NCBI GenBank assembly: GCA_964106915.2
Contig: OZ066919.1
Reading direction: 5' to 3' (one strand)
Source: Podarcis gaigeae
Lineage: Eukaryota
Length of the DNA stretch: 64,000 nucleotides
How positions within the stretch are numbered: the first letter of the stretch is position 1; each line of letters starts with the position of its first letter. Both the position numbers and the translations under genes were made by a program. A model generated the notes under the pieces. It was not told where the DNA came from. It did not search any database and saw nothing but the letters and a program-made list of their open reading frames with translations. Shown piece after piece: positions 20,874 through 36,059 of the stretch.

Positions 20874-20920
20874 AAACAAATGCAAGTGTTATGCAGTCAA
20901 AAAGAAGAAAATCCAAATGA
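20874..20920 (+). CDS. NCOA6: NCOA6 terminal coding exon with stop codon
   Basis: Acceptor ccccccaacag|; reads (E)TNASVMQSKRRKSK*, matching the NCOA6 C-terminus QSKRRKSK; TGA at 20918-20920. Confidence 0.92.
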
Positions 20921-24646: not shown

Positions 24647-26214
24647 TTCATGTTTGTGACTCTCATCCTGAAAATTACTTATGCTGAGAACAAAGGAACA
24701 AAACTGCACCTTGCCCAAAGGCCCTTAGCTTGGTAAAATACAGTATTTATCAAATCAAGCCCTTAGTATGCTTTAAAAAAAGCCTGCAATTTTAAAACCA
24801 CCATACATATATTTGTAGCATTTAATCTGCAGCCATCTTTGTGTAGTAGGACATTAACTATGGTGGCCTGAATCAATTTGTGTCATTTCTTTGATGTATA
24901 TGTTCCTTAGAGAATAGTGAAGCCAAATCATGGGAAAGTGGGCGAGGGGCGTATGAAAGACAGATGCACAAATCTATAATAAATACAATGTGAAGATGTA
25001 TAATGCAGAAGTGAAGAAATATGAGTAGAAAGCAGGGCTGATTATAAGGAAATATTGTACCACTCAAATGCTACTTGACAGGTAAAATTAGGCTAAAATA
25101 GGAAAAGACTAGGAATGTGGTTGTTAGGTGAATAAACTATATTTTCATCATAAGGAAGAACAACTGAGGAAAGAGTTAAAATGCAGTTGGGAGACTTGGA
25201 GCCACAATCCAAATGTGGAAAGTAGTGCCTCTCATCTCTGCCTTAACATTCCCCTAGTAAATTCAGGAAAAGGGCCTAGACTAGAATACCCTTTTTGAGT
25301 CCTCTGGGTACCTTCCCCACCTTTCTTTGGCCTTGCCTCCAAGTTAGTAATCCCCTCTACCCCTGTTAACATTAATGAATCTGAAACATCCATTCCAACT
25401 GGCATCAGAAATGCAGTATATCACTAAGGAAGTTTGTTTCCTTGCACTTCAGGATGGAAGTGTGCATCCGCAACACTGTCAAAGACATATGCTGTGTCAG
25501 AAGTGTGTGCTGTTAGTTCCAGATTAGAGACGAAGTATGAAAATGTGTTTTGATGTGGACGTCCATACAGCAATGGCTCTGCAACTGTTGGGTTCCCAAC
25601 TCCCACCAGCCTCAGAGAGCATGGCCATTGAATAGAAATAAGGAGAGTTGGAGTCCAACAGCATCTCGGAGGCCATAGGTTTCCTGTCCTCACCATACAG
25701 GACACAAAGTTATGAGGGAGCTGGGTTAGGGCTGTTGTTTTTAATGGCAGTGGTGGTTCTAAATCTCTGAATGCTTTATCCAAAAGCATGTTACATGCAA
25801 CTACATGTTTACACATGGTACAGCAATTGTGATGATAATCGCATATCACAAAAAGGTGCTGTAATGTCAACACTATGGACACTCTGGGCACATTCCTCTA
25901 GCATAACCGTTTCAATCAGGTGTGTAAGATTTCCCTGCATAATTAGTAACTGGAGATTTGCCATGTGCAATCCACCTTAGACTGTTACATGGATAAGGAA
26001 CCAGATATTTTTGAACTCTGATTCCCATCATCCTGCAATCAGCATGACCAGTTGCTAGGGATGATGGGTGTTGTGCAACAATGTCCAATGCGCCACATTT
26101 CCCATCTCTAGTCTATTATTTACATTAAGATTTATTTCTTAGTTTCAGTGAGATGTCACTTTAAATAGTAAAAGGGGCGATATGGAAAATTATGTGGATA
26201 ATAATTATATATAT

Positions 26215-26481
26215 AGGTTTTGGTGTCCTCGGGTGTCTTCCCGTGTAAAAGTTGGGGTGTCTAGGCGACGTTTCGACGAGGTCTCACTCGTCATCTTCAG
26301 GCTGGTGCTTTCGGCCTCTTGTTACTAGTAGTCTACTAGTAACAAGAGGCCGAAAGCACCAGCCTGAAGATGACGAGTGAGACCTCGTCGAAACGTCGCC
26401 TAGACACCCCAACTTTTACACGGGAAGACACCCGAGGACACCAAAACCTGCATTCCCGTACCCGTGAAAATCTACGAAAGC
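26215..26481 (+). mobile_element. Penelope-like element fragment with inverted 5' duplication (perfect palindrome 26215-26449) and hammerhead-like core
   Basis: 117-bp perfect arms around T26332; CTGAAGA-T-GACGAG-tgagac-CTCGTC-GAAACGTC at 26364-26397; unique 32-nt 3' tail; flanked on both sides by TAATTATATATAT. Confidence 0.78.
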
Positions 26482-32700: not shown

Positions 32701-33596
32701 TATGCTGTTCTGCCAAGGTATAGTGCCAGTATTGGGTAGGTGGAAGACAATTTTAGTCTGATTTGACCTCAGATGGAAATCTTCCATTCAGTTGTGTCAT
32801 GTGAATATAAAGCTATTGCCTTTAGAAACACAGCCCCAGGACCCCCAGGACCACACAGCTGATTCCCTTAGCCAAGAGGCTTTAGGCTTATATTTCTTCA
32901 ATAGCAGCCCCCTTCTCCAAATTTCACATGGTAAACCACTTTTGAAACACATGCAGAATGTGATATTATACAGTATAAGGGTTGGGTGGTTCTAAAACCT
33001 AGGGTTGCTCAACAACTTTATGGCAACCCTATAAAACCACAGCACTGAAATGCTACCTTTTTCTCCTTTCAGCTGAGTTTCAGTACATAATTTGCTTTCT
33101 TATTCTAAACATGTATCAAGCTTATTTTTTAAAATGTATATATAGACAGTACCAAATGATCATCATGAGGTTTTATATAGGAAATTCCTAAGGTCAGTGC
33201 AGATTAAATATGACAAAAAAATTGCAGATCTCAACCAGACTGAGCAAGTGTTTAAGAATCAATGGTCATTGTGACCATAATCAGGATGTGAACACTGTGA
33301 TTAACTTGATAGAAGGGGTGGGTGGGGAAATGAATAAGAATACAGTACAAATGTTTTTAAAATTACAGTTTTGTTGCAGGCATTTCATATGGGATTGTTT
33401 TTAACAGGACAATGCTTGTCTAAAATAATTAGAGTGAAACCCAGTTATTCCTGAAATGGTCTTGATCAGAGGAGACCTCCTCCATGCATCTGACTACCGA
33501 ATCAAAGCTATTTGTTCTCATAATCTATGTTTATTGGGTGCTCTAGATTGTAAAAGACTTTCTTCAAAGTGTGGGTACTCATGCTGTTCTCTAGAG

Positions 33597-33732
33597 CAGT
33601 GTTTCCCAACCTTGTGCCTCCAGATGTTTTTGGCCTACAACTCCCATCATCCCTAGCTAGCAAGACCAGTGGTCAGGGATGATGGGAGTTGTAGGCCAAA
33701 AACATCTGGAGGCACAAGGTTGGGAAACACTG
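33597..33732. mobile_element. Young hAT (Charlie-type) hairpin MITE, 136 bp
   Basis: Perfect 58-bp inverted arms with a 20-nt loop; 8-bp TSD CTCTAGAG on both sides. Degenerate relatives (ctacaactcccatcat motif) at about 6.1, 21.9, 22.1, 25.6, 26.0, 28.8, 30.7, 41.4 and 42.7 kb. Confidence 0.92.
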
Positions 33733-35809
33733 CTCTAGAGGGTATTCATTCTACTCTCCAGGGTCCAGACCTACATGTCTTTGGCTTACACCTGGTCAAC
33801 AACTTCAGATACCTTCTTCACTGACACGCAGCCTGAACCTATGTATCCACTGAATTCAGCGGTGCTTACTCTCGAGAAAGTGTGCATAGGACACTTTATT
33901 TTACCTTCTATCTTTGACCTACTTACTTCATCCCTCCAGCCTCATTCAATCTCTTATCTAACATCCTTCATTACTTCCTCCAACATACTTTATTACCTCT
34001 AAAATTATGTGTAAGCCCCTTTCTTTGCTGAGGTCCTTGGAATTAACATCAACACCAGAATAAGATAACATGAATGAATATGAAGTGCTCTGCTGTTGGC
34101 AAGGATCGAAAAATGATGTTTCCCCACTAAACATAATATTAAGGCATGATCCTGCCATCCCACTGAAATCAATGGAAGAAATGCGACTATTTACATATCT
34201 GTTTCCCATTGAAAGCAATTGTCACGGACTTATCTGGTTGGTGCCCTTAGAACTCAACCTGATAAAAGTCCTCAGAACAAGAGTCTCTGTCAAACATCTG
34301 TTTTTATTTTATTCAGATTACTTTTAATAATTTCCTTCATTAGGACAAGGAAATATTTTCATTAGAGGAAGTTTGCCATGATCAGCCTCAGGATAAAATG
34401 CATGGGGTAAAGATGCAAATTTGGGATTTTAAAATGTGTTGGTTTTTTTCCTTTTTAGAGGTTATTTTACACTTATACACATACGGATGTCCTTCTAAAA
34501 CGTACCACATCCAACTGTGATCTGTACACATGGGTTTAAACACTTGCTCATGAAGTTATGGGGCCATGAATGATATTGCAAGAAAAACTAGGATAGCTTT
34601 TATGCAAGTAATCAGAGGGAGGAAGAGCCCACTGCATTTCAAAAAGGCCATGTGTGATTAAAAACAACGTTAATACAAGCTTGACCTTTCAATATCTGTG
34701 AACCTCTGCAGCACCCACAAACCACTGCTGGCAGTTACAGCTGCTCAAAATGAACTTTCAAAGGGTCCATTTCACATCACATGACACTACTGAACTGAAG
34801 ATTCAGACACAATCCATCTTCTATTTGAAGTCAATGGCAAAACTCCCATAGATTTTCATGGGTCTTACAGCCCCAGTAAAATTAAGGATATGCCAGAATG
34901 CCTCATGACTAGCCACTACATCAGCCCAGTGAAAGGAACAAATATGCAATTTGTGTATTTTTAAAGGAAAGACATCTGTCATAAGATATAGTTTTAAGTA
35001 GTTCCATTGGGACTTGTTTGGTTTATTTGTTATTTTTGTGTTCCAGTTTGCACATGAACCTGGTATCTCAATTTGTGACACCACACTGTAGAGAGTGTGA
35101 TGTCATAAAGAAAGGCACTGATGTCATAGGCTCCCTAGTGCAACAACAAGGGACCAAAGGAAATGACAAGGCCATTTGGCCCTACTATGTATGTAACTCA
35201 CTGGAAAGAAATTGAAATGTGATATATTCACTGGAAGCACCAATTAGTCTAACACTGGTCATTTCTACAATAACCAGTGTGTGATTTCATGCCGCTTGGT
35301 GATCAAGAATATAACCAGAGATAAATGGCCTTTCTTGGTAACTAAGAGGCATGCCTATTTCTCCAACACTTCTTTAAAAACAACAACAACCCACATTGGA
35401 GTTTCAAAATAGACCTGCAGCCTAATTACTGGGACATTTTACTGGGTCATGTTGGGTTTCTCTCACCTTCAGATCCAAATCAAAATCCACGCTCGTGGAT
35501 GGAGGGATGGGAATGGGGAAGATTAAACCCAAAAAGAAAATGAAGCTGTAGATCAGAAAATGTATTTCTTGCTGAAAAAGGGGTGTGGGGTGGAGATATA
35601 AAGCCCATGAAAAGCCCACAAAAGAACAACTATTGAACGTTGCCAGTTCAGGAAGAATGTAGGAGGTTTTCTCAAAGGGGTGAGGGGAGTGGGTTTATTT
35701 CAGAAAATGGACGAAGATGACCCTCTTGGCTGAAGAAAGCATTGTGAGGAACTGGTGAAGCTGAAAGTTAAAAGGATAATGCCCCACAGTGTAGACTTCC
35801 TGAAGTAGC

Positions 35810-36059
35810 TTAGTAGTTGTATTGGCGCTGGCATGGCTGGTAGACAAAGCTGCCTTGGTGTTTGGCCCGTCGCGGGCGGCACTCTCTGGTGCGGTTCTGC
35901 CGCTGCATGACTTTCTGACTGAACTTGTGCTTCTCCGACAGCTGCTTTGCCCTCTGAATCCGACGCACTTGGTTGACCTTCTCCAAGATGGCGGCCTTGG
36001 TGGCAAGAGAGGTGGAGTGGTGAGGGGCATGACGCTGCAAACGGCGTTCAGGTACCTCA
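35810..36059 (-). CDS. TP53INP2: TP53INP2 last coding exon with stop codon
   Basis: Acceptor ttttgtttctgcag|; reads EVPERRLQRH...QRQNRTRECRPRRAKHQGSFVYQPCQRQYNY*. Spliced CDS is 124+346+250=720 nt (239 aa). Tail-to-tail position next to NCOA6 supports INP2 over INP1. Confidence 0.94.

What the first reader, a model, noticed from the sequence alone, without database searches (positions are those of the whole stretch)
26215..26449. Perfect 235-bp palindrome carrying a hammerhead-like core on both strands
Seen: 117-bp arms with no mismatches, a 1-nt spacer and intact CpGs, so very young or homogenised. Each strand has CUGAAGA-U-[GACGAG/CUCGUC stem II]-GAA-ACGU-C, again with a palindromic tetramer in place of helix III, and a GUC triplet. 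This is a different family from the 17.2-kb element. Stem I is only 2-3 bp here, so activity is uncertain. Known: Penelope-like elements often have an inverted 5' copy of their pseudo-LTR, a unique 3' tail and AT-rich targets, all matched here. Inference: any transcript from either convergent gene crossing it meets a ribozyme motif and then folds into 117-bp dsRNA that sequesters it, a potential kinetic switch and ADAR/Dicer substrate. In DNA it is a cruciform-prone site.
Basis: partly seen in the sequence, partly recalled or inferred. Interest (0 to 1): 0.72.

Follow-up and report, generated by a model that had tools for sequence, protein, structure and literature searches.

The report
Double-primed lizard Penelope retrotransposon stub
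This perfect DNA palindrome is one of thousands of very young, gene-less stubs of a known kind of jumping gene (a Penelope-like retrotransposon) in a lizard genome, likely made by copying the element's RNA onto both cut ends of the target DNA, and its two ribozyme motifs are predicted to stay switched off rather than act as a regulatory switch.

Summary
The palindrome and both hammerhead cores are real. They are a 266-bp, 5'-truncated, head-to-head insertion of a very young Poseidon-type Penelope-like element: 7,020 core matches genome-wide, an intact 988-aa RT + GIY-YIG ORF in another copy, a 14-bp target duplication and a one-sided tail. This architecture is published.

The copies constrain how it forms. 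99 of 109 two-armed insertions pair one long end with one short end, at positions matching the two RT start sites reported for Anolis Poseidon. In an unbiased sample the tail-less arm reached further 5' in 21 of 41 pairs, which simple fold-back cannot produce. Arms usually share lineage markers (20 of 24 against 9% expected), but 4 differ. Arm 5' ends pile up five-fold just inside a predicted start site. The best reading is two separately primed cDNAs joined head to head.

The proposed kinetic switch is not supported: the complement is transcribed before the ribozyme, stem II probability is 0, and the site lies 5.3 and 9.3 kb past the neighbours' stop codons. The scan reached similar readings on other genomes.

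The parts
26202..26215 (+). Left copy of the 14-bp AT-rich target-site duplication
   Evidence: Sequence
26216..26326 (-). Left arm: element from 32 nt upstream of the ATG to ORF nt +79/80 (short-end class, no tail)
   Evidence: Mapped to the natural unit in L078
26267..26300 (-). Minimal type I hammerhead core on the minus strand
   Evidence: Descriptor scan; the end coordinate mirrors the plus-strand core
26327..26337 (.). 11-nt non-element junction, itself an inverted repeat; likely a templated insertion made when the two ends were joined
   Evidence: Absent from the native upstream sequence of longer copies; origin inferred
26338..26481 (+). Right arm: element from 32 nt upstream of the ATG to ORF nt +112 (long-end class)
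26348..26348 (+). Rare A>G variant present in both arms (mirror position 26316); only 4 arms in the genome carry it
26364..26397 (+). Minimal type I hammerhead core: CUGAAGA, extra U, 6-bp stem II, GAA-ACGU-C; predicted cut after 26397
   Evidence: descriptor features from PMC4209133
26370..26481 (+). First 37 codons of the Poseidon ORF (ATG at 26370, overlapping the core and stem II)
   Evidence: Full 988-aa ORF in L078; same layout reported for Anolis Poseidon
26450..26481 (+). 32-nt one-sided tail between the two end classes
   Evidence: tail described in PMC11167929 and PMC8557442
26482..26495 (+). Right copy of the target-site duplication, running on into a (TA)n tract to about 26529

Best explanation
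This is a gene-less, head-to-head stub of a very young Poseidon-type Penelope-like retrotransposon, likely built at this site when both 3' ends of a staggered cut each primed a short cDNA on the element's RNA. Shown: element identity, copy number, two fixed end classes, the one-long-plus-one-short rule, the target duplication, marker sharing between arms, and the pile-up of 5' ends. Inferred steps: (1) the RT-endonuclease, probably a dimer, cuts AT-rich DNA with a stagger of about 9-14 nt; (2) one end primes at ORF nt about +112 to +118 and the other at about +80 to +84; (3) here both cDNAs stop 32 nt upstream of the ATG, about 10 nt short of a predicted transcript start 42 nt upstream, as expected if the start sites nearest the RNA's 5' end were used; (4) host end-joining links the two cDNA ends and adds 11 templated bases. 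The template is usually the same RNA or the same source locus, and sometimes two different RNAs. The hammerheads are passengers, predicted to be locked in the 117-bp hairpin in any read-through RNA.
For: [quoted passage not shown] Ends: of 146 anchored ends, 61 lie at +84, 41 at +113 and 31 at +118; PAc starts reverse transcription at +111-118 and at a second site one tail-length away, on both strands. Long-plus-short rule: 41 of 45 pairs in the unbiased sample (p 5e-9) and 99 of 109 overall. The tail-less arm reaches further 5' in 21 of 41 pairs, 12 of them by more than 50 nt, so it cannot be a copy of the tailed arm. The short end also occurs alone, in 4 of 13 single-arm loci. Marker -546T (476 of 2,855 arms) is on both arms in 20 of 24 informative pairs against 9% expected, and the 4 mixed pairs point to two templates. 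5' ends per nt: 35 and 32 between -5 and -43, against 6.3 and 5.6 further upstream, with TATTTATA 30 nt upstream of the edge. Junctions (n=109): 57 with 1-5 nt overlap, 11 blunt, 41 with insertions; 12 of the 19 insertions longer than 5 nt match sequence near a break over 10 nt or more.
Against: No biochemistry or RNA data exist for this family, so the transcript start is inferred from DNA ends and a TATA-like motif only. In this particular copy both arms end at the same base and share a rare variant, which a local fold-back or later arm-to-arm conversion would also give. Arm 5' ends lie within 20 nt of each other in 12 of 41 pairs against 1.7 expected, which suits a fold-back step in some events. 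10 of 109 pairs break the long-plus-short rule. One RNA versus two RNAs is not resolved: among same-class pairs 4 of 5 informative ones still share markers. The mixed-marker pairs could reflect ectopic conversion. Overlap lengths at junctions come from BLAST ends and include chance matches. Both samples come from the first 100 listed matches, and the second was selected for one marker.
Confidence: 0.75

Rival explanations
1. Fold-back (self-priming): one cDNA, or an antisense RNA as proposed in PMC3846280, folds back and copies itself, and the endonuclease trims the tail from one arm on resolution (as suggested in PMC8557442).
For: Both window arms end at the same base and share a variant seen in only 4 arms genome-wide. 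There are 12 locus-private variants shared by both arms in 53 kb of overlap, and near-equal arm extents are in excess. An ATT, the cleavage preference of PAc, lies at the short end. Inverted flank duplications occur at L048 and L060.
Against: Without trimming it fails for the 21 of 41 pairs in which the tail-less arm is the longer one. With trimming it still cannot give arms that differ at a lineage marker (4 of 24 at -546 and 1 of 3 at -430) and does not account for single-arm insertions with the short end (4 of 13). Shared variants often recur at other loci (28 of 40), as source variants would. PAc primes at two RNA sites on both DNA strands in vitro.
Confidence: 0.17
2. One reading: a host-relevant kinetic switch or ADAR/Dicer substrate in transcripts of the convergent genes.
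For: The two genes do converge on the site. Stem II forms with probability at least 0.98 in an isolated arm, and the full insert folds into a -248 kcal/mol hairpin.
Against: The complement is made before the ribozyme on both strands, and stem II probability is 0 in the nascent and full RNA. Single minimal hammerheads were inactive. The site is kilobases past both stop codons. Flank contigs from 3 of 4 runs stop matching at 26200-26215 without entering the element, which hints that the insertion is not fixed. Thousands of sister arms carry the same motif.
Confidence: 0.04
3. The palindrome is an autonomous-acting small unit (retrozyme- or MITE-like) copied whole from another locus, or an assembly artefact.
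For: One junction recurs among short copies: 16 of the 50 loci listed have the same perfectly symmetric centre.
Against: The search with the right arm found no second locus with this centre, and the arms' variant is found in only two unrelated single arms elsewhere. Junctions vary across the other listed loci, and the recurring one sits at the predicted RNA start. The unique flanks, tail and target duplication argue against an artefact.
Confidence: 0.04

Closest known systems
Poseidon of Anolis carolinensis (PAc; PMC11167929)
   Same: RT plus C-terminal GIY-YIG ORF starting at hammerhead stem II; tandem units; AT-rich targets; two end positions 30-40 nt apart with the outer one at ORF +111-118; 45% identity to the matching Anolis protein.
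   Different: A distinct family: 988-aa ORF that runs through the pLTR and stops 11 nt into the next unit; predicted cut 28 rather than 26 nt from the ATG. In the parts read, the paper does not link the two start sites to the two arms of one insertion.
Inverted-pLTR-plus-tail insertions of endonuclease-positive PLEs (PMC3846280, PMC8557442)
   Same: Head-to-head 5'-truncated copy, palindromic junction, tail often at only one end, target duplication, microsatellite bias.
   Different: Those papers ascribe the inversion to self-priming on an antisense template and the tail to endonuclease resolution; the copy statistics here fit two separate primings better.
Minimal hammerheads of metazoan PLEs (PMC4209133)
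   Same: Long helix II, extra base before stem II, G10.1-C11.1, palindromic tetramer in place of helix III, and dual motifs close together on opposite strands, as that paper noted.
   Different: Helix I here is 2 bp against the usual 4-5 bp; no same-sense partner lies nearby.
LINE-1 twin priming (recalled, not looked up)
   Same: Both 3' ends of a staggered cut prime cDNA, and the products are joined by microhomology.
   Different: In L1 the inverted piece copies a different, upstream stretch from a variable internal site; here both arms copy the same stretch from two fixed sites.
Non-LTR retrozymes (bioRxiv 10.64898/2026.07.22.740005)
   Same: Small hammerhead-bearing sequences related to PLE pLTRs.
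   Different: Retrozymes occur as monomers or same-sense tandem arrays; this is an inverted pair with a centre not seen elsewhere.

Membership tests
Endonuclease-positive PLE, Penelope/Poseidon clade | Single ORF with RT and C-terminal GIY-YIG endonuclease | tested here: met
   988-aa open frame in L078; RVT_1 E 7e-16; GIY-YIG E 7e-4, 20.2 bits, just under Pfam's 22.6 cut-off. The window copy holds only the first 37 codons.
Endonuclease-positive PLE, Penelope/Poseidon clade | DKG motif and CCHH motif with two cysteines between GIY and YIG | tested here: met
   Read from the translation against criteria in PMC8557442
Endonuclease-positive PLE, Penelope/Poseidon clade | No CX2-5CxxC linker between RT and endonuclease (present in Neptune and Nematis) | tested here: met
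   Absent from the translation
Endonuclease-positive PLE, Penelope/Poseidon clade | Placement in the clade on an RT tree | not tested
   No tree was built; only pairwise similarity to the Anolis protein
Endonuclease-positive PLE, Penelope/Poseidon clade | pLTR from partial tandem copies, inverted 5'-truncated copy, 30-40-nt tail at one end | tested here: met
   Tandem 2,965-bp unit in L078; 99 of 109 pairs have the tail at one end
Endonuclease-positive PLE, Penelope/Poseidon clade | AT-rich or microsatellite target with duplication | tested here: met
   A/T runs follow nearly all ends; duplications of 9-14 bp at 6 of 7 loci examined, and 19 bp at one locus inside a repeat
Minimal type I hammerhead (PLE min-HHR) | Conserved core boxes, extra base before stem II, G10.1-C11.1, palindromic 15.2-16.2 tetramer | tested here: met
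   Descriptor scan against PMC4209133; no Rfam hammerhead family matched at E up to 1
Minimal type I hammerhead (PLE min-HHR) | Helix I of 4-5 bp | tested here: not met
   Only 2 bp adjacent to the core; PMC4209133 also describes a 2-bp helix I in the D. virilis variant
Minimal type I hammerhead (PLE min-HHR) | Self-cleavage (as a dimer or protein-assisted) | not testable with these tools
   Needs a bench assay; folding predicts sequestration at this locus
Non-LTR retrozyme | Unit copied whole, often as same-sense tandem arrays | tested here: not met
   Single inverted pair; centre not found at a second locus

The most novel reading that the evidence does not exclude
Poseidon elements insert by asymmetric twin priming: the two active sites of one RT dimer are set on two fixed start sites, so every two-armed insertion gets one tailed and one tail-less arm. 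One RNA is usually copied twice, but two different RNAs can feed one insertion. About 15% of arms, including this palindrome, are run-offs to the 5' end of the transcript from its first pair of start sites. This would replace the self-priming and endonuclease-trimming explanations of PLE inversions and tails.
Probability: 0.5. Interest if true: 0.55.

Novelty: new member of a known kind. Interest (0 to 1): 0.3.

Why it matters
The locus itself is ordinary transposon debris. The family is useful for two reasons. About 7,000 arms at more than 99% identity, with an intact ORF, give a clean record of how Penelope-like elements insert, which the papers read call undefined. The long-plus-short rule, the mixed-marker arms and the sharp 5' edge turn that open question into simple in vitro tests. 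The burst has also left many long near-perfect inverted repeats (12 of 41 sampled pairs have arms ending within 20 nt of each other), which could matter for genome stability and as insertion markers.

Tried and rejected
Rfam found no hammerhead family; its miRNA and antitoxin hits are below their gathering scores and reflect the hairpin only. My first idea, that the arms' common 5' end (26338) is itself the transcript start or a splice acceptor, was dropped: listed junctions cluster about 10 nt further upstream and vary. Ribozyme cleavage as the cause of 5' truncation was rejected: only 1 of 110 arm ends lies near +29. RNA editing as the source of shared variants was rejected: none of the 12 shared private variants in the pairs is A>G, though the window's own is. 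De novo telomerase-like addition of (AT)n was considered and is unresolved; readable duplications and the flank contigs fit a pre-existing AT-rich target. A mixed model in which same-class pairs come from two unrelated RNAs was not supported, since 4 of 5 such pairs share markers. The structure of the empty site across both flanks was not obtained. A sequence look-up in the scan's notes and a look-up by genome returned nothing.

Full report
Observation. The palindrome is as described: 117-nt arms at 26215-26331 and 26333-26449, fully complementary, with a 1-nt spacer and 8 CpG per arm. Each strand carries a minimal hammerhead core (+ 26364-26397, - 26300-26267) with a 6-bp stem II and a 2-bp helix I. 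The inserted unit is larger than the palindrome: 26216-26481, with a 32-nt tail on the right, between two copies of a 14-bp AT-rich duplication. The central 11 nt are not element sequence.

Setting. The large plus-strand exon matches NCOA6 proteins, with a stop near 20918. Two minus-strand exons match the DOR family, with a stop at 35810; that NCOA6's neighbour is TP53INP2 is recalled. The insert lies 5.3 kb and 9.3 kb beyond these stops. The closest homologue of the element's protein is a Podarcis muralis protein at 94%, so the host is probably a lacertid lizard.

Identity. The 23-nt core has 7,020 matches in the genome with up to one mismatch, and the reversed control has none. Locus L078 holds a 2,965-bp tandem unit with an uninterrupted 988-aa ORF that starts at the ATG inside the hammerhead. 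[quoted passage not shown] It is 45% identical to an Anolis carolinensis protein whose N-terminal residues fit the PAc RNA text in that paper's supplement. Copies differ from the reference by 348 substitutions in 219 kb, many of them at two marker sites, so the burst is very recent. No tree was built.

Samples. Sample 1 was all 54 loci defined by the first 100 listed matches. Sample 2 was 72 loci from the first 100 of 476 matches to a lineage marker, leaving out 5 already held. Positions are counted from the ATG, with 0 as the base before it.

Two fixed ends. Of 146 anchored ends, 61 lie at +84, 41 at +113 and 31 at +118, nearly all followed by an A/T run. PAc starts reverse transcription at +111-118 and at a second site that bounds the tail; it extends both target strands and is predicted to be a dimer. 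In sample 1, 41 of 45 head-to-head pairs join one long and one short end (p 5e-9). In sample 2, 58 of 64 do. Thirteen loci of sample 1 have one arm only, 9 long and 4 short, so either end can start an insertion by itself.

Against simple fold-back. A folded-back copy cannot reach further 5' than its template, and a tail-less template cannot supply a tail. In sample 1 the tail-less arm reaches further in 21 of 41 pairs (12 by more than 50 nt), the tailed arm in 18, and 2 are level. In the selected sample 2 the split is 40 to 17 of 58.

Template sharing. Marker -546T is in 476 of 2,855 arms. Among strict pairs that cover it with at least one T, 20 of 24 have it on both arms, against 9% for independent draws. 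Three further loci with T on both long arms were left out because extra pieces lie between the arms. Over all variants seen at two or more loci, 28 are shared by both arms and 10 are not; 5 of those 10 are at sites seen in only two loci and may be repeat mutations. Locus-private variants are shared in 12 cases and unshared in 28. So the arms mostly come from one RNA or one source locus, while the clean mixed pairs (L117, L140, L147, L057; L152 is more complex) suggest that two RNAs can contribute. Ectopic conversion is not excluded. The window's arms share a variant found in only 4 arms genome-wide, which fits a rare source, a local fold-back or later homogenisation.

Why this copy is short. 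Arms are lost at 35 and 32 per nt between -5 and -43, but at 6.3 and 5.6 per nt further upstream. In sample 1, 23 of 110 arms end between 0 and -41 and none between -42 and -69; a TATTTATA lies 30 nt upstream of that edge. I infer a transcript start at -41, and that short arms are run-offs from the start sites nearest the RNA's 5' end. The window's arms stop at -31. This step has no RNA support.

Joining. Of 109 junctions, 57 overlap by 1-5 nt, 11 are blunt and 41 carry insertions; 12 of the 19 longer than 5 nt match nearby sequence over at least 10 nt. This resembles polymerase-theta end joining (recalled). Arm ends lie within 20 nt of each other in 12 of 41 pairs against 1.7 by permutation, and in 7 of 32 against 1.05 when short arms are removed. 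That excess fits a shared RNA end or a fold-back bridge in some events and is the main result that my reading explains less well.

Ribozyme. An isolated arm forms stem II with probability at least 0.98. In the whole insert, and in a nascent RNA ending 20 nt past the GUC, the probability is 0, and forcing it costs about 29 kcal/mol. On both strands the complement is transcribed first. Single minimal hammerheads did not cleave; the PAc motif cleaved only with protein and was not needed for insertion in vitro. A switch function here is unlikely.

Presence in other samples. A stretch holding the left flank and 85 nt of the arm was laid on four runs, all kept as contigs. Flank contigs of X1 (organism A), X4 (B) and X5 (C) stop matching at 26200-26215 with letters left over that do not enter the element; X3's contig ends at 26097 and is uninformative. 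This hints at an empty site, but contigs do not prove absence.

Literature. Seen: PMC4209133 parts 1-2 of 4; PMC11167929 parts 1-2 of 4 and the text of two supplementary figures, without the images or the sequence file, which may bear on the exact second start site; passages of PMC3846280, PMC8557442 and bioRxiv 10.64898/2026.07.22.740005. The architecture is described there. Eight searches listed no paper whose title or abstract start proposes twin priming for PLEs, but the library lacks most subscription papers, including the older Penelope reviews. The scan's own notes hold similar readings for other genomes; I had stated this reading beforehand, and the notes are not independent support.

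Verdict. A real feature and a new family member of a known kind. The host-function idea is not supported. The value lies in what the copy set says about the insertion mechanism. Interest 0.3.

Noticed in passing
window 26216-26300 in run X4: Organism B, whose flank differs from the window at only 7 letters, shows summed contig depth of about 5-8 over the element, against 340,000-840,000 in organisms A and C (C differs at 20 letters). A hint that the burst is missing in a close relative; contigs do not prove absence.
   Followed up: no
window 33589-33740: Second perfect inverted repeat (66-nt arms, 20-nt spacer) from a repeat family whose other copies in the window are 72-88% alike; weak mir-5408 match below threshold. 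Either a young copy or a sign that hairpin arms are homogenised in this genome.
   Followed up: no
window 17278 (-), 10544 (-), 63356 (+): Three other minimal-hammerhead-like motifs with an AGCU tetramer and different stems, probably older PLE families.
   Followed up: partly
L048 flanks; L060 1594-1660: L048 has about 170 bp of flank duplicated in inverted orientation on the two sides of the insertion; L060 has a flank hairpin centred on a TA run at its 5' junction. The element may create inverted duplications of host DNA.
   Followed up: partly
L043, L047, L057, L059, L068, L079, L103: Clusters of several insertions joined tail to tail through (AT)n, suggesting repeated insertion into an earlier target duplication.
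   Followed up: no
L078 4039-7005: The 988-aa ORF runs round the whole 2,965-bp unit and its stop lies 11 nt into the next copy, inside hammerhead stem II, so a complete reading frame needs a tandem junction.
   Followed up: partly
Element positions -5 to +1: A second cluster of 5' ends (10 of 110 arms) sits at the start of the hammerhead core and is unexplained: a pause site or a second RNA end.
   Followed up: no
L053 about 1300-1317: Ten bases of (AT)n lie between a truncated arm and a new short end where the element sequence has none, a possible case of de novo repeat addition.
   Followed up: no
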